DNA of 64,000 nucleotides from Escherichia phage Eps7: the sequence record NC_010583.1. The stretch is one strand, 5' to 3'. Below the pieces are notes generated by a model. The model did no database searches, was not told the origin of the DNA, and saw only the letters and a program-made list of their open reading frames with translations. The position numbers and the translations under genes are program-made. Positions 1,612 to 11,232 of the stretch are shown piece after piece (within the stretch, counting starts at the first letter, position 1; the number at the start of each line of letters is the position of its first letter).

Positions 1612-3277
1612 TTATGCAAAGAATTTACCGTTTTTGAAGTCAATCAAAGTACGTTGCCCGTTTGCATAGGTAATTAAATGCGTTTGCGTCCAGCTTGACG
1701 CGCCCACGTTGTAGCCCATATCAAGCGACCCCGCCACGCCAGCGGTATAAACGCCGCCGTAAATGCTAGCCGTATGAGTATGACCAGTGTTAAGGCGTCC
1801 CAACTTTTTAAACTGCTTAGGATTGCCCCGACTGCCGTTAATGCCATTGTGACCATGTACGCCGCATTCAATGCCAGCGATTTTAAACGACTGGTCAGTA
1901 GTCAGGAAAATAGCGTTAAATTCGCAACCTGCGACACTACGCAAGGCGTAATCTAGCACGTTAAAAGTATCATCCTTTTCAGCAATAGCGGCGTATATAG
2001 CAGCGTTTAGACGGTGATACAATTCCGCGTTTGCGGGATCGTCTTTAATGTTAGCGTTACGATCATCTAACCAGCGGGATAAAGCTAAATCATGGTTAGA
2101 TTCAACAATGATTGTTTGAGAAAAATCACGCTCCATTGATTCTAATACGCGTCCAGTGTCGATAAGATCATCTAGAACCTTGTCACGTCCTGCGGCGTAC
2201 TGTTTAGCAAGGAATACACCACTAGCGCGGTTGTGATGGTTACGCGATGTAAAATCATGCACATCATGAATAAACTGATATTTAGGCTTGAGAATATCAA
2301 GCAAGCTGTTTTCACTAGCCCATGAAGCAACGGCGCATTCATCATCTAGTTTTTCGGCGTGAATATCGCCATATTGCAAGCCTAGAACATGATCGGACGT
2401 TTCAAAACATCCGGTGGGCATAGCGCAAACATTCAAATCATAGAACATTCCGCTTTCATCCATTGTTTCAAGCTGGCGGCAATAAAATTCTCCGTCGTCG
2501 TCAAATTCTACCAGCAAAGCACCGTAATTATGCAGCGCCTCGGCTTTTTGACCTGCTTTCTGCTGAATGTAGTTTTTAAGCGTAGCCGTTCCGGTTGAAT
2601 ACATACGGCGCACTACTTCACCTTTTAACGCTGGCACACTTTCAGCGGTAATTTTAGCGTGACCAATTGCCAGACCTTCAATATTAAAGCCGTGGCGGTT
2701 TCTGCGAATCCTGAAAGCGGATAGTCTGCCGTTGGTAACACGTTAATTTCAGCCATGAAAGCAAAACGGCGATTATTTAAAAATACGTTTTTCTCGCAAA
2801 TATATTTATTAAATGCGGGATCGTATTTAATGCCTTCGTTACCTTCTCCATTCTGGAAGCCGTTTTTATTGTAAATGAATTTACTAACCAGCAATTCACC
2901 GCCGATATATTCAGCGAATTTTTCCAGACTTGCTAAAAAGTTTTTATGCGGGAGGAAGTATTATTTTGAATCGACGTTAGAATAAAACGGCGACCGGATT
3001 TAACTTCCCACTGTTCCACGGTACTAGAAACAATCCCCGCCGCTTCTGGGCGATCATCATTTTTAATCGCCTTTTCAGCTTTTGCCGCTTTCGGTTTCGC
3101 TGGCTTGTTTGCTTCCAGCCAATCACAAATCGCGGTGGAATGTTTCGTTGTATCGTAAACAGCTTTTGAAATATCGTCGCAAACTTCTAATTTAGTAGCG
3201 CGCAAACGCTTACCATAGAAATTAAAATCAGCGGCCATTTTCAGAATTTGAGCTTGTTTTTCTGCGGAAATATTCAT
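1612..3277 (-). CDS. A1: A1-like pre-early protein with metallophosphoesterase domain; reading frame interrupted twice
   Basis: three consecutive same-strand ORFs (2933..3277, 2625..2894, 1612..2637) totalling ~545 aa; GVHGH and GHTHT phosphoesterase-like motifs in the C-terminal piece; ORF ends look out of frame. Confidence 0.55.
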
Positions 3278-4177: not shown

Positions 4178-4429
4178 TTAGCTAATAGCTTGCCATTTAT
4201 CATCTTTCTGAATGATCTTTACAACGTCGCCGGATTTAACGCGAACATTATAAATTGGCTTGCCGTGGTTACTGCGTTCCGTTTCCGCATAGACCGCTTC
4301 AATTTTATCGAAAGGATCTAGCGCCGCACCTTTAATACGTTCGGCTTTTCCGGTTAATTCATCCGTTTTAGTAACGAAAGGAATAAATACAGATTGACCT
4401 ACTTTCGGCGCGGTAATAACGTTTTGCAT
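4178..4429 (-). CDS. hypothetical protein
   Basis: 83-aa ORF ending the minus-strand pre-early block. Confidence 0.4.
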   Translation of the reverse strand: MQNVITAPKVGQSVFIPFVTKTDELTGKAERIKGAALDPFDKIEAVYAETERSNHGKPIYNVRVKSGDVVKIIQKDDKWQAIS

Positions 4430-4563
4430 TTTTAATACTCCGGTTTATTGGGGATTATTCCACAATAGCGCCTCGATACTTTGAAACGCTATTAGATTAT
4501 AATCCGCTAGGAGTTAGCCTAAACATTACCGTTTTTCCAAATTGTTAAAGAGCAGTTACTACG

Positions 4564-4872
4564 GGGAACATCTTAAAACCTATCGGCTAGCGTGTCAAGC
4601 GTTTTTTAAACTTTTTTCGATTTGATGTGAGTTATATAAATCAATCATTATATTACGCCACACCATTTCCAGACCTTGCTGCTTACCTTTCTTGTATTGC
4701 TTGAATCTGTATTTTACAGATCGTTGCGCTACTGTCAACAAATTTTTTTGTTCTGCTATCTAATGCGCTAGCAGGTTTCGCACTAATCACTAAAGCGTTT
4801 TTTGATTTGATCATTATCGTCGATTCCTTATAATGTATAAGTTTACCGCCGATAGGCTTTAAGATGTTCCCT
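4564..4872. repeat. 24-bp inverted repeat pair (GGGAACATCTTAAAACCTATCGGC / reverse complement) separated by ~260 bp
   Basis: 4564-4587 and 4849-4872 are reverse complements with one mismatch; lies in 1.5-kb non-coding region. Confidence 0.7.
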
Positions 4873-5520
4873 AGTTTTTAAAGAGCATGGCGGTAAACTT
4901 CCCCGCCGTGTAATCTTGCGTTTCGTTTCCGTCCCGCCGTCCTACGAGATAAATAATAGCAAATTGAGCGAAAGAGACAAGCGTAATTTTGTAAAGAAGT
5001 GTAAAGACAAACGCCACCGCACCACGTCCAGCGGCGCACTAAATTTAATGAAACGGGCGCGCGAATAACACCAAAACAACCATTTTAGCAAGTAATTTTT
5101 TCATTTATATCTGCTCTAGGGTACTTGACAAAATCTAAAATCCTCGTGGTGAGGTTTTCTCGGTGTACCCCTTATGATTGCCTATCTTTTCCTTTGATGC
5201 GCTTAGAATCGCTTACAGAGCGTTTTAGACCCTGTTAATAACTTATACAAAAAGCAAAAAATGAAATTTAATGAGTTATCCACTTGATTTTTCAAAAAAG
5301 TATTTTCTGCTGTTATTTTTCATTGACAAATAAGTTTAGACGTGCATTGATTGGTTAGCAGACTAACAATCGCTAGGATGATAATCACGCTGGTGGATTG
5401 TAACAGCCGAAACAGTTAGCAGACTATTAATAATCTAAAAACCTATTAGCCAACTAACTATTTCATATTATATAATATACTTATAAATTAAAGAGAAATA
5501 ATAACTATAAGAAACTATCG

Positions 5521-5655
5521 GCTAAGTGAGAACCACTATCATTTAGGTTATTCACAAAGTTATCCACAGCACTTTTTGACTTGACACAATAAGCAACATT
5601 TTGGCGACTTATCCACAGACTTATATACAGGTTATCCTACTGTATAAATATACAG
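5521..5655. repeat. left arm of ~135-bp imperfect inverted repeat carrying DnaA-box-like 9-mers and a 7-bp-arm palindrome
   Basis: reverse complement of 9781-9914 aligns with 5521-5655; TTATTCACA, TTATCCACA x2 at 5548-5617; CTGTATAAATATACAG at 5640-5655. Confidence 0.7.
5548..5617 (+). promoter_or_regulatory. cluster of three DnaA-box-like sites (TTATNCACA)
   Basis: TTATTCACA 5548-5556, TTATCCACA 5560-5568 and 5609-5617. Confidence 0.5.
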
Positions 5656-5905
5656 GGTAGAATGGTAGCAGTAACAACCGCAATCAAATTTAAGCGGTCT
5701 AAAACGCGCTACACGGCGTTTTCTCACTGCTGCCCTTATTATAATAAAGCCTTGTGTACGCTTACAGAGAGCTAGAAATAGAAAAACGCGCGGCTATCAT
5801 AAAAACAAGCGTTAGGCAAGGAATAAAAAACCTTTTCTTTTTTCTTGCCCCTAACAAACAAATATCTATATCATTCACTCACCGATTAACGATGGAGACA
5901 AAGAA

Positions 5906-6907
5906 ATGTCTACTGTAAGAATTGCAGTACCAGCAAACGCAACTATTGTTAAAGGTAGTTTGCGCAACCTGCTAGATGGTAGTAGTGCGGCAAGTATTCA
6001 GCACACCGCCGCAATGGTTGAAAAAATTCACGAGGATATTTTAGATAATAATGATACTCATTATTCAGTCGATGATTTCACGCTATTACTAGACCAGACA
6101 AGGGCGCTAGTAATTTTCAACCGTGATTATCACATTTTCCGTAACAGTCGGGGAACTGATATTGATTTTATCATTGTTGGTTATAGTGAATCCAATAATG
6201 GTTACATTGCGCGATTATATAACGTGCAAGAAAAAGAGCAGGTAACAGCAACAAAAGTAAATAATATCCGGCTGGATAGTGTCGGATCGTTATTAAATAG
6301 TATCTGGCGTGAATTATCCTCAAGCTATAAAGGTGCGGATAGTGACGCAATCGAAACAACTGGCGTATTGTGTTTTGAAAAGTCAACGGGTAACATGTTG
6401 ATCCCTAACGATTATTTAGAGTATGGGAATGAATCAAACGTTGCAAATGCTGGATTTACACTTTTACCGCTTGACAATGTAACAAAACAGGCTGTACAAT
6501 CTCAAACTTCAAGCGCAAATGCGCAAACTACTGAAAATAAAGGAAATATTATGTCTAAAGTATCTTCTATCGTTGCCGCTAATAAATCCGCCGTTGTAAA
6601 CGCTGCTAAACTGGAAGCGGGTAAAATTGCACTGACTCAAATCACAAAAGTAGCGGCGAAAAAAGCGCCGTTTATGATTAAAGGTTATATCGATACGCCG
6701 ATTGGTCGTGTAGTGATTGCTAACCTGTTAAGCGTAGCAGTTGACCAGTACGCCCCGACTAATCAGAAAGCGAAAGCGATAGCAGGCGCGGCAATGGAAG
6801 CGGCAATGTTGGAAATGGTACAGAGTTTCAATATTGCTGAAATGATCGATGAAATGGTAAAAGGCATTGACATTTCTACCTTTACCCAAAACACCGAAAC
6901 AGAATAA
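5906..6907 (+). CDS. hypothetical protein
   Basis: 333-aa ORF with GGAGA RBS; first gene of plus-strand cassette. Confidence 0.6.
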   Translation: MSTVRIAVPANATIVKGSLRNLLDGSSAASIQHTAAMVEKIHEDILDNNDTHYSVDDFTLLLDQTRALVIFNRDYHIFRNSRGTDIDFIIVGYSESNNGYIARLYNVQEKEQVTATKVNNIRLDSVGSLLNSIWRELSSSYKGADSDAIETTGVLCFEKSTGNMLIPNDYLEYGNESNVANAGFTLLPLDNVTKQAVQSQTSSANAQTTENKGNIMSKVSSIVAANKSAVVNAAKLEAGKIALTQITKVAAKKAPFMIKGYIDTPIGRVVIANLLSVAVDQYAPTNQKAKAIAGAAMEAAMLEMVQSFNIAEMIDEMVKGIDISTFTQNTETE

Positions 6908-6915
6908 TAATTACT

Positions 6916-6938
6916 AGCGGGGATTATTCCCCGCTTTA
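6916..6938 (+). terminator. hairpin AGCGGGG-N6-CCCCGCT with short T tract
   Basis: stem-loop immediately after stop of 5906..6907. Confidence 0.4.
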
Positions 6939-6973
6939 CTATTTCCCTGTTAATTGTTAGGAGACTAGTTATT

Positions 6974-7282
6974 ATGCAACTAAATCAAATCATGTTAGCG
7001 CAATTAGCCGAAAAAATGCCGAATAGCCCACATGTTAATTATTCGGACAATCAAAGCAATATTCCTATATGGGAAAAGCAAGGCCGTCCCTTTTTATGGG
7101 AACATGTAGAAAGCGCGAATAATTATCATGCTTTCTTTGATCGTGGTTATGGCTGGCTATGTATTTTTGTAGACGAAACTTTGCTGGATTATGGAATGGA
7201 TGAAATAGTCCGTGATGACGTAATTTTCTTAAATAAAGGATTTTACAGTGTAGCAAATTCTCTTTATTTCCCCGCTAATTAA
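6974..7282 (+). CDS. hypothetical protein
   Basis: 102-aa ORF preceded by TAGGAG RBS. Confidence 0.5.
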   Translation: MQLNQIMLAQLAEKMPNSPHVNYSDNQSNIPIWEKQGRPFLWEHVESANNYHAFFDRGYGWLCIFVDETLLDYGMDEIVRDDVIFLNKGFYSVANSLYFPAN

Positions 7283-7295
7283 TAGGAGTCTAGTT

Positions 7296-7790
7296 ATGTC
7301 AGAAGAAAAATATGGCTTTTCTCTAGAAAGTGTGAATGAAGCTGAACACGATATGATCGTTTTAGTTGATTGTCATACTGGCTATTGCGGGGAGGGCTGG
7401 ACGGAGGAACATTTTGTTCCCGCTGGCTGTGATCTGGACGCTTTCGCAAACGAACACGCATATGATAATGCTTCTCGTTTCGGTAGCGATGGGGAAGAAG
7501 ATGAAGAAACAGGGGAATGGATTGAAAATGATAATGTATATGCGAGTCTTTATCATTATCAATTGAGTAAGTCCGGTACTTATGTAAACGGCGGCGATCC
7601 TATTAATACCATTATGAAACTAATTATTAAACACGGTGGCGCGGAAATAATTGGTAACAAGGCGTTATTATACGCAAACCGATTAAAACAGCTTGTTTAT
7701 ATTCCTAATAATTCCCGTTGGGATGAATATGCCGTTTTACAGAAAGAATTAAAACGCTGTTTCAACATTGAAGCATTAGAAATAGTCTGA
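7296..7790 (+). CDS. hypothetical acidic protein
   Basis: 164-aa ORF preceded by TAGGAG RBS. Confidence 0.55.
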   Translation: MSEEKYGFSLESVNEAEHDMIVLVDCHTGYCGEGWTEEHFVPAGCDLDAFANEHAYDNASRFGSDGEEDEETGEWIENDNVYASLYHYQLSKSGTYVNGGDPINTIMKLIIKHGGAEIIGNKALLYANRLKQLVYIPNNSRWDEYAVLQKELKRCFNIEALEIV

Positions 7791-7806
7791 TGTAAAGTTT
7801 TGTAAA

Positions 7807-7833
7807 GGTCGCCTATTATGGCGGCCTTTTTTG
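7807..7833 (+). terminator. rho-independent terminator-like hairpin plus T6
   Basis: GGTCGCC-loop-GGCGGCC followed by TTTTTTG. Confidence 0.55.
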
Positions 7834-7897
7834 TTATAATGCCTTTACACCGAAACGGTGGATTGAAAATTTTCCCTGATTTCTAGGAGGCGTTAAA

Positions 7898-8125
7898 ATG
7901 GTACATTCATCATCTTCTGCAATTTTTAATGGTATGGAATGGGTATCCGTTCCCGCTATTATCAGCGTTATGGTTTCTGAATTTGGGATTGGTAAAACTT
8001 ATATCACCATTCAGGAACTTTATGACAATGACAAGATTGACCAGCAAACGGCGGGCTTTTTGCTGGATGAATTAAAAGCTAACCACTGTACCAAAAAGCA
8101 AGCGGCAAAAATTGTTTTAATGTAA
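7898..8125 (+). CDS. hypothetical protein
   Basis: 75-aa ORF with CTAGGAGG RBS. Confidence 0.45.
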   Translation: MVHSSSSAIFNGMEWVSVPAIISVMVSEFGIGKTYITIQELYDNDKIDQQTAGFLLDELKANHCTKKQAAKIVLM

Positions 8126-8171
8126 TTATTAAAGGGGATATATTATCCCCTAATTTCTAGGAGCTAATAAA

Positions 8172-8321
8172 ATGGTTATTTTTAGATCTATTCTGGCTAG
8201 TATCTTGGGCGCTATTTTATCGCTGTTTGTAATAGCTTTCGGCGTTCACGTGGTTATTATTGGAGCAGGTATCGCGGGGTTTTCTTACTTGTTAGGCTGT
8301 ATGACTGGTAAAGGGGAATAA
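8172..8321 (+). CDS. small membrane peptide (49 aa)
   Basis: ORF below track threshold; CTAGGAGC RBS; hydrophobic. Confidence 0.4.
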   Translation: MVIFRSILASILGAILSLFVIAFGVHVVIIGAGIAGFSYLLGCMTGKGE

Positions 8322-8324
8322 AAA

Positions 8325-8537
8325 ATGTTAAAGAATATTTCCCTTGCCCGTTCTAAAGGTTTTAAGCTGGTGGATGTTAACACGTTTGAGCGTCCAGATT
8401 GTAAAATCGAATATGTAGCACGCAACAAAAACGCTTTCCGTGTTACTGAAAAGAAATTTGACAAGCGCGGAAATTTGGTAGCCGAAACGGTTAAACACTT
8501 TGCCACCTTTTACGCTGCTTTTCGTGGGGTATTATGA
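8325..8537 (+). CDS. hypothetical protein
   Basis: 70-aa ORF. Confidence 0.45.
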   Translation: MLKNISLARSKGFKLVDVNTFERPDCKIEYVARNKNAFRVTEKKFDKRGNLVAETVKHFATFYAAFRGVL

Positions 8538-8658
8538 AAACTTTATTTTCTATTTTGCTCGGTGCTGCTGGTGGCTTTATTGCTACCTACTTAAAGTGAT
8601 CCTGCACTGTTAGGAGTTTATTCGATTTGTTTTGGCTATTTGCTAGGGAGGTTGGCAG

Positions 8659-9003
8659 ATGGTAATTTATGAGGGCAATCGCTTTATTACTAATTGCCGT
8701 CCGGCATTATTAGCAAACTATTTAAATCAGCTTTCACCAGTTTATAAAGGCGTAGTTAATATCTATGAGGGCAAAGCACATTATAAAATTTCTGCCGTTG
8801 TCGCCCGTGAACTAGCGTTTCAATTTTTAACTTTTGGGTCTTGTGACGTTCAGGTTATGGGGGAAGCGTTAATAGCGGAAAATGAAAATGAATTTATTGA
8901 CATTTTCCGCAAAGTATGTACGGAGCGCCTGATTATGAAAGGCGCGTATATTCAATCAACCGCTGAAAGTATTGAAACAGCGTTTCGAAAGGTGGCGCAA
9001 TGA
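8659..9003 (+). CDS. hypothetical protein
   Basis: 114-aa ORF with GGGAGG RBS. Confidence 0.55.
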   Translation: MVIYEGNRFITNCRPALLANYLNQLSPVYKGVVNIYEGKAHYKISAVVARELAFQFLTFGSCDVQVMGEALIAENENEFIDIFRKVCTERLIMKGAYIQSTAESIETAFRKVAQ

Positions 9004-9200
9004 CTAAAGATGAAGCACTAGAAAAAATGAAACAAGGTTTCAAAGTTAGTAATCAATATTTTACTAGCGATGAATTTTTGTACATGAAAGAAAACGGCGT
9101 GATCATGTCAGAAGATGGTTACAATTTTAATGATTGGTTTTTCAATATTCGCAAGGGTGAGGAATGGAAGCTAGACGGTTGGAGCGTCTACCGTGAATAG
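9000..9200 (+). CDS. hypothetical protein
   Basis: 66-aa ORF, ATGA overlap with upstream gene. Confidence 0.5.
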   Translation: MTKDEALEKMKQGFKVSNQYFTSDEFLYMKENGVIMSEDGYNFNDWFFNIRKGEEWKLDGWSVYRE

Positions 9201-9326
9201 CTGGTGGCGTAAAACGCAAAGTCACAAATCTAATAATACCGCTGGGAAACATTCCCAGCGTTTACGATTTGGTAATGGCTTTACAATGATATTGATAATC
9301 ATTCTCATTCTAGGAGCGATGGCGTT

Positions 9327-9422
9327 ATGAGACTATATATTTTCGTGGGTAATATTAAGCCTGCTAATGATCCCAACGGTGGCGACAATATCCGCCGCTA
9401 TTTTCAACAATACATCTATTAA
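9327..9422 (+). CDS. small hypothetical peptide (31 aa)
   Basis: ORF below track threshold preceded by CTAGGAGCG RBS. Confidence 0.3.
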   Translation: MRLYIFVGNIKPANDPNGGDNIRRYFQQYIY

Positions 9423-9437
9423 TAACGGGGCGTTACT

Positions 9438-9632
9438 ATGAGTGATAAAATTGTTATTAGTAAAACTAGTGTTACCGTGGATACATTCTATGTAGAAGAT
9501 ACAAAAGAAAACCGCGCAATTTGTGAGAATCAAGAGTATGACAAACTTATATATGATGAGTATGGTTACTACACTAATCTAGTAGATTCCTACGGTGAAA
9601 GCGTAGAGTTCTCCCATCAAATACCGGACTAA
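9438..9632 (+). CDS. hypothetical protein
   Basis: 64-aa ORF; last gene of plus-strand cassette. Confidence 0.5.
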   Translation: MSDKIVISKTSVTVDTFYVEDTKENRAICENQEYDKLIYDEYGYYTNLVDSYGESVEFSHQIPD

Positions 9633-9638
9633 TAATAA

Positions 9639-9668
9639 CGGGGCGCAACTATCGGCCCCGCCTTTTCT
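9639..9668 (+). terminator. GC-rich hairpin followed by T-rich tract
   Basis: CGGGGC-loop-GCCCCG then CCTTTTCT after last cassette gene. Confidence 0.5.
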
Positions 9669-9780
9669 GGCCTTCCTCAAATTTCCCATTATTAAAATAC
9701 CTCCTCCAAAAATAAACGCGTTAGGATGCGTTACAGAGCGTTTTAGAGCTATATTAGAGTTATTCACCACGCAGGAATAC

Positions 9781-9914
9781 TGTATAAATATACAGTAGAA
9801 TAACCTGTTGATAAGTCTGTTGATAACGCCTCAAAATCACTAGGATTTTGTCAAGTCAAATCGTGCTGTTAATAAACCTGTGGATAACTTAAATAACAGT
9901 GTTTCTCACTTCGC
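9781..9914. repeat. right arm of ~135-bp imperfect inverted repeat (DnaA-box-like sites, palindrome)
   Basis: CTGTATAAATATACAG 9781-9796; TGTTGATAA x2 (9807-9827) and TGTGGATAA 9879-9887; reverse complement matches 5521-5655. Confidence 0.7.
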
Positions 9915-10100
9915 TTTCTAAATGCGACTCATTCTCATTATGCGACTCATTCGTACTCAACTCTGTAAAGGATAACCATTCTCATTCCGCTTTCTAAGTG
10001 TGAATCATTATCATTCGCATTCAACTTCTCAAATGCGAATCAATCTCATTATCATTCGCATTTCGGCAGGCAGGGCATTTTCATTTTGCCCTGCGCTTTT

Positions 10101-10698
10101 GTGCAAATCCGACATTTGCCCCCACGGATTACGTGCCAGCGTGCATGTGCGAATCCGACAATTTTGTGTGTGAAACCGATGGGAAATATTTTTTATATGT
10201 GCGAATCCGACAATGAATTTTCCTAAAAACTCCAGCAATCAGCAACTGCGATGCAATCCAGCTGGATTCACTAGAGTATGTGCAAATCCGACATGAGTTT
10301 ATTTGTGCAAAACCGACAAGATTTTTGTGACTTCGATGAGAGGGTGTGTGATTGTGTGGGTTTGGGGAGAAGTGCGAATCCGACGAGGTTTTTGGGAGGA
10401 ACTATGGAGGGTGCAGCTGTAGTGGTGCTTCAGCACCGGTTTGCTGCGTTTTTGGGGATAATGTGGGATGTTTTGGCTAGAATTGAGATTAGTGGAGATA
10501 AAGCGAAATTTTTATTAGCAAAATGGGGCAAAATCGCTTGACAAGTGAAAATTCCTGTGGCTCCAAAAACTCAGGCAATCAAGGGCCTTCGGCCCGAAAT
10601 AATGCTGCTATTTTCAGGAGAGTATGTGTTCATGAAAACTTAGGCAATTGTGCAAATCCGACCATAAATTTCTAGAAACACAATGTGCAAATCCGACA
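10101..10698. repeat. dispersed array of about 8 copies of 14-bp motif GTGC(A/G)AATCCGACA
   Basis: copies at 10101, 10147, 10199, 10280, 10305 (variant), 10372 (variant), 10650, 10685; irregular spacing; non-coding. Confidence 0.75.
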
Positions 10699-10741
10699 GT
10701 AATTTCCAGAAATGTGTTTTCAAAAAAATGTTGTCTAGAAA

Positions 10742-10814
10742 TAACCGCCCTCCCTATAACCGCCCTGTATAGGAAACCGCCCTAGGATATCTATAGTAGG
10801 TGAGAAACTGCCCT
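10742..10814. repeat. short direct repeats AACCGCCCT x3 plus AACTGCCCT
   Basis: 10742-10750, 10758-10766, 10775-10783, 10806-10814. Confidence 0.6.
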
Positions 10815-11232
10815 AGAATGCGTGAGAAACAGATTTAAAGTTTGATGTAAACTCTAGAGTTAGTGCTCAACTATTCCTAGAAACTTAGGAGTCTAGAGGA
10901 AAGTGTTGTGCCATCCTAGCAGATGAGCGGCAACAGGTGTATCATCTTGAACATAAATATTGCCTTTAAATATTTATAAGGTAAATAAAAGTAAATATAC
11001 CCCCATTTCATGAGAGTTAGCCCCTCTAGGCGCGTGCGATTTGATACATCCTCCTGAGTCTCGGGGAGGAAGAACAATTGACGAGAACCTGCAAGCAGAA
11101 CCGTCATCAAGTGTTTTCCTACGAGGAATGATGTAAATCTACGGCCTAGAGGTAAAAACAAGTTGATGTTTTTAATCTATGAGATTATTATAACATGCAG
11201 CTCAAATAATGTCAAGAAGATTTTATTAACAT

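What the first reader, a model, noticed from the sequence alone, without database searches (positions are those of the whole stretch)
5521..9914. Plus-strand gene cassette bounded by ~135-bp inverted repeats carrying DnaA boxes
The reverse complement of 9781-9914 aligns with 5521-5655 (roughly three-quarters identity by eye). Both arms carry TTATCCACA / TTATCAACA DnaA-box-like 9-mers and the palindrome CTGTATAAATATACAG. The arms bracket the only plus-strand gene block in the left 10 kb (about 11 small genes, 5906-9632). This could mark an origin-like or DNA-transfer control element, or an invertible or recombinationally acquired cassette.
Basis: seen in the sequence. Interest (0 to 1): 0.65.

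Follow-up and report, generated by a model that had tools for sequence, protein, structure and literature searches.

The report
Known T5 injection-stop inverted repeats
The two ~135-bp inverted repeats are real, but they are the already-described repeat modules of T5-like phages that flank a block of early genes next to the signal that pauses DNA injection; I add that each ends in a near-perfect host LexA (SOS) site and that the gene block lies flipped in some related genera.

Summary
5521-5655 and 9780-9914 are inverted copies (105/140 identical; local score 73 against 9.8 +/- 2.1 for random window pieces). Each carries two pairs of DnaA-type boxes and the palindrome CTGTATAAATATACAG.

It is not new. 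The window is the left terminal repeat of a T5-like Epseptimavirus. The arms are T5's annotated inverted repeats C/D and D'/C' with palindrome D, whose DnaA boxes were reported in 1987 and compared across 25 phages by Davison (2020) as part of the proposed injection-stop signal.

What I add:
- The palindrome is a near-consensus LexA box, the only such sites in each of ten enterobacterial-phage loci examined. It is conserved with the DnaA boxes even in Vibrio T5-like phages.
- The arms match by side across genera, so there is no concerted evolution between them.
- The operon between them is inverted in Sugarlandvirus, Myunavirus and one unnamed lineage, implying at least two events. None of 416 close relatives carries the inverted junction, so it is not a switch.
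- Primer mapping suggests a published viable T5 deletion removes the left arm.

Origin and invertible-switch readings are not supported. Binding of host proteins, and any role in pausing injection, remain untested.

The parts
5203..5229 (+). B element, the copy outside the left arm. It corresponds to T5 'inverted repeat B'.
   Evidence: It is a direct repeat of 9721-9747 (85%, D8) and inverted relative to 5696-5710 (I17). T5 annotates IR B and B'.
5521..5655 (.). Left arm, equivalent to T5 'IRC-spacer-IRD' (Repeat Region 2).
   Evidence: Searches show the repeat. It aligns to T5 6022-6156 (77%) and to the left arms of other genera.
5548..5568 (+). Outer pair of DnaA boxes, TTATTCACA aag TTATCCACA.
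5609..5629 (+). Inner pair of DnaA-type boxes, TTATCCACA gac TTATATACA.
   Evidence: This module is 84-87% conserved over 19 arms.
5638..5657 (.). Palindrome D, left copy: the LexA-type box TACTGTATAAATATACAGGG.
   Evidence: Heterology index 3.93. Half-sites are 96-97% conserved and the centre 53%.
5690..5716 (-). B' element on the inner flank of the left arm (approximate bounds).
   Evidence: I17; the inner-flank alignment.
5845..5874 (+). Promoter-like site in front of the operon, at the position corresponding to T5 putative promoter P4.
   Evidence: Consensus scan only (9/12). A promoter upstream of T5 gene 011 is described as experimentally characterised in bioRxiv 10.64898/2026.04.02.716235.
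5906..9632 (+). Rightward pre-early operon of 10 ORFs. It includes a DUF7566 protein (5906-6907, the T5.011 homologue) and a T5.015-like Ung-dependent abasic-site nickase (8325-8537).
9721..9747 (+). B element on the inner flank of the right arm.
   Evidence: D8. It is conserved in most genera and in Vibrio phage Ceto.
9778..9797 (.). Palindrome D, right copy: the near-consensus LexA-type box TACTGTATAAATATACAGTA.
   Evidence: Heterology index 0.82, the best in the window; the next best is 11.5.
9780..9914 (.). Right arm, equivalent to T5 "IRD'-spacer-IRC'" (Repeat Region 3). It has DnaA-type boxes on the minus strand at 9806-9814, 9818-9826, 9867-9875 and 9879-9887.
   Evidence: It is 92% identical to T5 9328-9464 and 100% identical to phage GreteKellenberger.
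9903..10050 (+). Direct repeats immediately right of the right arm, at the position of T5's direct-repeat C / palindrome E-J region (Davison's DRE).
   Evidence: Family D2. Collinear with T5 9231-10535; T5 annotation.
10086..10100 (+). Homologue of the T5 major nick site at 7.9% (GCCCTGCGCTTTTG), which lies close to the first-step-transfer shear point (approximate bounds).
   Evidence: Sequence comparison; T5 feature 9661-9668.
10099..10705 (+). Eight copies of ATGTGCAAATCCGACA (T5 'direct repeat D'). By homology to T5, the terminal repeat ends at about 10570.
   Evidence: Family D1.

Best explanation
This is the pair of conserved non-coding repeat modules of the first-step-transfer DNA of T5-like phages, called IRC-spacer-IRD and IRD'-spacer-IRC'. 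They flank the rightward pre-early operon inside the left terminal repeat. The right copy sits directly left of the repeats and nick where first-step transfer ends.

Each module is an array of sites of the kind bound by host proteins already present in the cell when the DNA arrives. It has two pairs of DnaA-type boxes, followed at the operon-facing end by one LexA-type palindrome and a further conserved 'B' element.

The most likely mode of action, which is inferred and not shown, is as follows. DnaA and LexA load on the freshly injected DNA without any need for phage gene expression. The right-hand nucleoprotein complex contributes to arresting or anchoring the DNA at the end of the first step. 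A1 and A2 then let transfer resume. The left copy is an auxiliary, dispensable duplicate.

The inverted arrangement has, as a by-product, allowed the enclosed operon to flip and to be exchanged during evolution. The element is neither a replication origin nor a programmed invertible switch.

My confidence differs by layer: identity with the known T5 element about 0.97; host DnaA and LexA actually binding about 0.6; a causal role in the injection stop about 0.3.
For: Identity with the T5 element:
- The window is 93-96% identical to Epseptimavirus genomes.
- The arms align with T5's annotated IR C/D, D'/C' and palindrome D.
- The region to the right is collinear with T5's nick, D repeats and terminal-repeat end.
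- The literature describes the same 131-bp repeats with eight paired DnaA boxes, and the injection-stop hypothesis.

Motifs of the kind bound by host proteins:
- Four of the ten consensus DnaA boxes in 64 kb lie in the arms.
- The palindrome scores a heterology index of 0.82 and 3.93. The next best in the window is 11.5, and the lowest value in shuffled windows is 7.3.
- In ten loci of T5-like phages of enterobacterial hosts (the window and nine relatives), the only LexA-like sites are at the inner arm ends.
- The half-sites are 96-97% conserved and the centre only 53%, as expected for a site bound by a dimer.
- The DnaA-box pair, palindrome and B element recur in Vibrio phage Ceto, whose A1 is about 32% identical, and boxes and palindromes co-occur in Vibrio phage D25.
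- A2, the phage's own DNA-binding protein, has diverged to 31-86% identity while the motifs have stayed fixed.

Selection acting on each arm separately:
- Arms match by side across genera (up to 76-100%) better than they match their own partner (57-73%).

The left copy is dispensable:
- It is absent in Priunavirus and degenerate in Novosibvirus.
- The T5 deltaL-deltaR mutant is viable with small plaques. Its deletion primers map to about 5360-5388 and 9082-9107 of T5, which removes 6022-6152 and keeps 9332-9462.
Against: - No binding or functional experiment exists. The BF23 paper states that experimental studies are lacking.
- A protein that binds DNA already inside the cell does not obviously stop DNA still in the tail.
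- The left module enters first and does not stop transfer. Only a minor ~5.8-kb band, reported by Rhoades, is cited by Davison.
- The LexA boxes are about 200 bp from the nearest promoter-like site, so they are not classical operators.
- My LexA matrix was built from sites recalled from memory, so the index values are approximate.
- The palindrome could equally be the site of a phage dimer such as A2.
- From my own knowledge, T5 plates on recA strains, so LexA cleavage cannot be required for the second step.
Confidence: 0.6

Rival explanations
1. The motifs are operators for phage proteins, not host proteins. The palindrome and TTATCCACAG repeats would be the binding sites of the dimeric DNA-binding protein A2, with A1, which act there to release the paused DNA and start second-step transfer.
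For: [quoted passage not shown]
- A palindrome with conserved half-sites and a free centre fits any dimer.
- A2 is present in every genus that has the arms.
Against: - A2 has diverged to 31-61% identity between genera, and A1 to about 32% in Vibrio phages. Meanwhile the palindrome stays at the host LexA consensus and the boxes at TTATCCACA.
- The stop itself occurs without phage protein synthesis, as stated.
Confidence: 0.2
2. The arms are transcriptional control or insulator elements. LexA and DnaA bound at both ends would repress or insulate the enclosed operon, several of whose genes are toxic, or tie it to the host SOS state.
For: - LexA boxes are normally repressor sites; the CTG-N10-CAG consensus is given in PMC2994835.
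- Genes 011, 013 and 015 of the T5 operon are toxic when expressed.
- The sites sit at both ends of the operon in all genera.
Against: - No sigma-70-like promoter overlaps the palindromes. The best operon promoter candidate lies about 200 bp away.
- In Sugarland and My1 the operon is flipped, so the geometry between site and promoter is not kept.
- The inner-flank B element shows no conserved terminator hairpin.
Confidence: 0.12
3. The inverted repeats exist to mediate recombination: inversion or swapping of the accessory-gene cassette.
For: - Homologues of four window operon proteins (three each in Sugarland and My1) lie in reversed order and on the opposite strand between the arms, and the unnamed lineage L076 shows the same.
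- In the A1 tree the inverted lineages are paraphyletic (bootstrap 98-100), so at least two events are needed.
- Cassette length varies from 1.6 to 5.4 kb and its content is mosaic between constant arms.
Against: - The inverted junction is found in 0 of 416 close relatives, against 190 of 421 for the native junction.
- No recombinase is present in the operon.
- The arms themselves are not swapped or homogenised, so crossovers lay inside them.
- Purifying selection on specific motifs, reaching as far as Vibrio phages, is not explained by a recombination role.
- Priunavirus has only one arm.
Confidence: 0.06
4. It is a DnaA-dependent replication origin or origin remnant.
For: Clusters of DnaA boxes, some with the full consensus TTATCCACA.
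Against: - Davison cites electron-microscopy mapping of T5 origins near the genome centre, and notes that replication genes are not yet in the cell at this stage.
- By my primer mapping, deletion of the left arm is viable.
- No origin-type unwinding element was sought or seen.
Confidence: 0.02

Closest known systems
Bacteriophage T5 inverted repeats C/D and D'/C' with palindrome D (Repeat Regions 2 and 3; proposed injection-stop signal). Sources: Heusterspreute 1987 and Wang 2005, both as cited by Davison, and Davison 2020 (bioRxiv 10.1101/866236).
   Same: - Position in the left terminal repeat.
- Arm length of about 131-135 bp.
- Sequence: 77-92% identity to the T5 arms.
- Two pairs of DnaA boxes spaced by 3 bp in each arm.
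- Palindrome D at the inner end.
- A plus-strand operon enclosed between the arms.
- Repeats, nick site and terminal-repeat end to the right.
   Different: Nothing essential differs. This phage is an Epseptimavirus with a different mix of operon genes. It has all eight boxes, whereas Davison reports that T5 lost one.
E. coli LexA operators (SOS boxes, CTG-N10-CAG), as in umuDC, sulA or colicin genes.
   Same: A 20-bp palindrome, TACTGTATA(W)3TATACAGTA, that matches the consensus as well as or better than genuine operators in my approximate matrix. Conservation falls on the half-sites.
   Different: - It lies in a virulent phage.
- It does not overlap a recognisable promoter.
- It is present as an inverted pair about 4 kb apart, each fused to a DnaA-box array.
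- Binding has not been tested.
DnaA-box arrays of oriC and of DnaA-titrating loci such as datA.
   Same: Several closely spaced, same-orientation boxes, including the full consensus TTATCCACA followed by G.
   Different: - Box spacing is 3 bp (a 12-bp period).
- No evidence of an unwinding element or of initiation.
- Located on DNA that is in the cell before any replication functions.
Invertible DNA segments bounded by inverted repeats (Mu G, P1 C, e14 P, Salmonella hin).
   Same: A gene block bounded by inverted repeats, found in both orientations in different genomes.
   Different: - No invertase gene.
- No orientation polymorphism among 416 close relatives.
- The arms are long arrays of protein-binding sites that evolve independently of each other.

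Membership tests
T5-type IRC-spacer-IRD / IRD'-spacer-IRC' repeat pair | An inverted pair of about 131 bp inside the left terminal repeat, flanking the rightward pre-early operon. | tested here: met
   By homology the terminal repeat ends at about 10570.
T5-type IRC-spacer-IRD / IRD'-spacer-IRC' repeat pair | Sequence homology to the T5 arms themselves. | tested here: met
   Left arm 77% to T5 6022-6156; right arm 92% to T5 9328-9464. Alignments.
T5-type IRC-spacer-IRD / IRD'-spacer-IRC' repeat pair | Eight DnaA or DnaA-like boxes in pairs separated by 3 bp, two pairs per arm. | tested here: met
   Box coordinates. The definition is quoted from Davison.
T5-type IRC-spacer-IRD / IRD'-spacer-IRC' repeat pair | The right arm is followed by direct repeats, the 7.9% nick motif and the D repeats. 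| tested here: met
   Families D1 and D2; collinearity with T5 9231-10535.
T5-type IRC-spacer-IRD / IRD'-spacer-IRC' repeat pair | Acts in cis to stop first-step transfer. | not testable with these tools
   This remains a hypothesis even for T5.
LexA (SOS) box | A CTG-N10-CAG palindrome close to the consensus TACTGTATATATATACAGTA (low heterology index). | tested here: met
   The matrix was built from sites recalled from memory, so values are approximate. The consensus and the index concept are in PMC2994835.
LexA (SOS) box | Overlaps or adjoins the promoter it represses. | tested here: not met
   No good sigma-70 match overlaps either palindrome. The weak 9/12 hits near the right arm are within chance: 28 sites found against 20.5 +/- 4.4 expected.
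LexA (SOS) box | Bound by LexA and released on RecA-stimulated cleavage. | not testable with these tools
   Needs gel shift, footprinting or ChIP.
DnaA-dependent replication origin | A cluster of DnaA boxes. | tested here: met
DnaA-dependent replication origin | Replication starts there. | not testable with these tools
   The literature cited by Davison places T5 origins near the genome centre. By primer mapping, deletion of the left arm is viable.
Recombinase-driven invertible segment (Hin/Gin/Cin/Pin type) | A site-specific recombinase encoded in or beside the segment. | tested here: not met
   Pfam and PHROG scans of all ten operon proteins found no recombinase. The flanking genes are dmp, A1, A2 and small ORFs.
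Recombinase-driven invertible segment (Hin/Gin/Cin/Pin type) | Both orientations occur among close relatives or within populations. | tested here: not met
   0 of 416 records carry the inverted junction, against 190 of 421 for the native one. All Type-1 IMG/VR loci in which the T5.011 homologue was found have the same orientation. Minority isomers within lysates cannot be seen in consensus assemblies.

The most novel reading that the evidence does not exclude
The invariant palindrome at the operon-facing end of each arm is a genuine high-affinity LexA operator. On this reading, T5-like phages from Vibrio to Escherichia hosts load two pre-existing host regulators, LexA and DnaA, onto the first 8% of their DNA. 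This host-protein complex would be part of the mechanism that pauses or licenses genome transfer, or that couples the pre-early programme to the SOS state of the host. I found no link between LexA and T5-like phages in the papers I could search. A second new point is that the operon between the arms has been inverted at least twice in the history of the family.
Probability: 0.25. Interest if true: 0.75.

Novelty: already known. Interest (0 to 1): 0.4.

Why it matters
How T5 stops after injecting 8% of its genome, and then restarts, has been an open question since the 1960s. As recently as 2023-2026, papers say the cis signal is uncharacterised.

The follow-up narrows what the element can be:
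- The two copies evolve independently, yet keep the same three motifs across the whole family.
- One of those motifs is a consensus LexA site that does not appear to have been noticed.
- The left copy seems dispensable.
- The orientation of the enclosed operon is free.

Together these turn a vague description ('many repeats and palindromes') into specific mutations and specific host mutants that could be tested.

Tried and rejected
- **Inner flanks swapped in inverted genera.** I first read alignment A2 that way. One search showed that both inner flanks share a further ~75-nt repeat (the B element) and that the T5-group left flank is simply diverged. An inner-flank tree groups the T5-group left flank with the right flanks of KEY and Sugarland, which would fit a second inversion crossing over at the palindrome. 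Bootstraps are below 50%, so I report this only as suggestive. No breakpoint could be located.
- **Promoters in the arms.** The consensus scan gave only weak matches at chance level.
- **RNA element.** There were no Rfam matches in 4400-11000 at E <= 0.1, and the B element has no consensus structure.
- **Host origin of the module.** An exact-pattern scan of 185,579 bacterial and archaeal genomes found only two short MAG contigs, probably phage DNA.
- **Testing whether the palindrome changes with the host's LexA specificity.** Rhizobium phage RHEph08 has an A1-like gene but is a T7-like podovirus with no T5-like layout, so it was uninformative.
- **Davison's 2015 review.** It is not held in the library. 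Older subscription papers (Heusterspreute 1987; Wang 2005) could not be read, so I cannot exclude that one of them noted the LexA-like palindrome.
- **First A1 tree script.** It timed out and was rerun with identity distances.

Full report
**What the window is.** The region 5300-10200 is 92-96% identical to many Salmonella and Escherichia phages of the genus Epseptimavirus (T5-like, family Demerecviridae). The best match is BSP22A. The right arm is 100% identical to that of phage GreteKellenberger. In BSP22A the left end encodes dmp, A1 and A2 on the minus strand, followed by ten plus-strand hypothetical genes. The window therefore starts at the left terminal repeat, the DNA that T5-like phages inject first.

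**Checking the observation.**
- The repeat finder gives two collinear inverted pairs, 5521-5590 / 9845-9914 (80%) and 5598-5655 / 9780-9837 (83%).
- A gapped alignment gives 105 identities in 140 columns. The local score is 73, against 9.8 +/- 2.1 for random pieces of this A/T-rich window, and no other partner exists in the 64 kb.
- CTGT-N8-ACAG occurs only twice in the window, once in each arm.
- Four of the ten consensus DnaA boxes lie in the arms. With one-mismatch variants there are two pairs per arm, spaced by 3 bp.
- The block 5906-9632 holds 10 ORFs, not 11.

**It is a known element.** The T5 GenBank record annotates the following features:
- inverted repeats C (6022-6060) and D (6112-6152), and D' (9332-9372) and C' (9424-9462);
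- palindrome D (9330-9349);
- plus-strand ORFs 011-017 between the repeats;
- to the right, direct repeats, the 7.9% nick (9661-9668), the D repeats and the end of the terminal repeat (10139).

The window's arms align with these features. Window 9679-10958 is collinear with T5 9231-10535, including the nick motif and the sequence at the repeat end.

Davison's preprint 'Phage T5 two-step injection' describes exactly these 131-bp repeats in 25 phages, BSP22A among them. It notes that the DnaA boxes were reported in 1987. It proposes that membrane-bound DnaA arrests the DNA at this injection-stop signal. Later papers repeat the description and say that experiments are lacking.

**What else the arms contain.** The palindrome is a LexA box by sequence.
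- The right copy, TACTGTATAAATATACAGTA, differs from the textbook consensus TACTGTATATATATACAGTA at one position.
- I built a heterology-index matrix from 25 E. coli operators recalled from memory, so the values are approximate. The two copies score 0.82 and 3.93. The training operators range from 2.2 to 11.8, the next best site in the 64 kb scores 11.5, and shuffled windows never go below 7.3.
- In ten loci of T5-like phages of enterobacterial hosts (the window and nine relatives), the only sites below 9 lie at the operon-facing ends of the arms. This holds for Proteus phage PL1, whose left arm has otherwise decayed. Providencia phage PSTCR5 has only a right arm.
- Over 19 arms the half-sites are 96-97% conserved, the two central bases 53%, the DnaA boxes 75-87% and the spacer 56%.
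- A further conserved 'B' element lies 20-80 nt inside each palindrome. It has no consensus RNA structure.

The whole module recurs in Vibrio phage Ceto: a DnaA-box pair, the palindrome, GGTAGCAG and the B element. There it again forms an inverted pair around an operon that diverges from A2, although A1 is only about 32% identical. Vibrio phage D25 has three palindromes, each beside TTATCCACA boxes.

The phage's own DNA-binding protein A2 has meanwhile diverged to 31-86% identity. Motifs that stay fixed at the recognition sequences of DnaA and LexA fit host-protein binding better than binding by a fast-evolving phage protein. As far as I know, both recognition sequences are shared by Enterobacterales and Vibrio. 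This is an inference. I found no paper linking LexA to T5-like phages.

**How the two arms relate.** Each arm is most similar to the arm on the same side in another genus. Examples are window right against T5 right at 90%, and Sugarland right against Slocum right at 76%. Each arm is less similar to its own partner (57-73%). There is therefore no concerted evolution. The repeat is maintained by selection on the shared motifs, not by gene conversion.

**Is the cassette invertible?**
- *Across genera, yes.* Four window operon proteins (333, 164, 114 and 64 aa) have homologues in Sugarland and My1, three in each, in reversed order on the opposite strand, still between the arms. IMG/VR loci of the same lineages agree, as does a third lineage, L076.
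- *Other genera keep the T5 orientation.* These are KEY, Slocum, Proteus PL1, Providencia PSTCR5, Vibrio Ceto and every Type-1 IMG/VR locus in which the T5.011 homologue was found.
- *At least two events.* On a neighbour-joining tree of A1, the inverted lineages are paraphyletic: (My1, L076) branches next to (Sugarland, (T5 group)), with bootstraps of 98-100. This assumes that A1 tracks the history of the locus.
- *Not a switch.* A query joining the left arm to the inverted right inner flank is covered at 80% or more in 0 of 416 matching records, against 190 of 421 for the native junction. No recombinase is encoded.
- *Crossovers.* Because the arms are not swapped, the crossovers lay inside them. 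I could not locate them.

**Content and dispensability.**
- The operon encodes a DUF7566 protein (the T5.011 homologue), a T5.015-like Ung-dependent nickase and small proteins of unknown function.
- The distance between the two palindromes ranges from 1.6 to 5.4 kb among relatives. GreteKellenberger has an identical right arm but a 30%-identical replacement of the 164-aa gene.
- A 2026 preprint reports a viable, small-plaque T5 mutant deleted 'from hegG to 017'. Its junction primers map to about 5360-5388 and 9082-9107 of T5. The deletion should therefore remove the left arm and keep the right one.
- Together with the one-armed Priunavirus, this argues that pairing of the two arms is not essential.

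**Conclusion.** The finding is real but already described. The origin reading is not supported. The invertible-switch reading is refuted for close relatives, but it has an evolutionary counterpart. The best-supported view is that each arm is an assembly site for pre-existing host DNA-binding proteins on newly injected DNA. The right copy belongs to the injection-stop region, and the left copy is an auxiliary duplicate. Binding of DnaA and LexA, and any causal role in the stop, remain to be tested.

Noticed in passing
window 1615-3277 (minus strand): The essential A1 gene is split over three reading frames. Relative to BSP22A and GreteKellenberger there is a 2-nt insertion (CC) near 2952 and a 1-nt deletion near 2688. 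This is either a sequencing or assembly error or a defective A1.
   Followed up: partly
window 5203-5229, ~5690-5716 and 9721-9747: Three copies of a ~27-nt 'B' element (TCTAAAACGCTCTGTAACGC...TTCTAAGCG). One sits on the inner flank of each arm and one outside the left arm. It is conserved as far as Vibrio phage Ceto (L085 3729-3776), has no predicted RNA structure, and no binding protein is known.
   Followed up: partly
window 4564-4587 and 4848-4871: A 24-nt inverted repeat (96% complementary) in the non-coding region to the right of the A2 operon genes. It corresponds in position to T5 inverted repeats A/A', which T5 annotates around putative pre-early promoters.
   Followed up: no
window 7296-7790 compared with L031 8272-8793: The 164-aa operon gene is only 30% identical to its positional counterpart in GreteKellenberger, while neighbouring genes are 87-100% identical and the right arm is 100% identical. 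This looks like gene-sized replacement within the cassette.
   Followed up: no
window 9000-9200: The 66-aa operon protein has a weak match to the Pfam Tad2-like (Thoeris anti-defence 2) domain: E = 0.005, 17.8 bits, below the 25-bit cut-off.
   Followed up: no
L083 (CALJZR010000013.1) and L084 (RZZU01000077.1): Two short contigs binned into bacterial metagenome-assembled genomes, one labelled Clostridia, carry the exact motif spanning the arm end and palindrome. They are probably T5-like phage DNA mis-binned.
   Followed up: no
L032 9334-9638 and L033 10609-11545: In the lineages with the inverted operon, two or three extra small plus-strand genes sit between the flipped operon and the right arm. 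This creates a divergent promoter region that T5-type phages lack.
   Followed up: no
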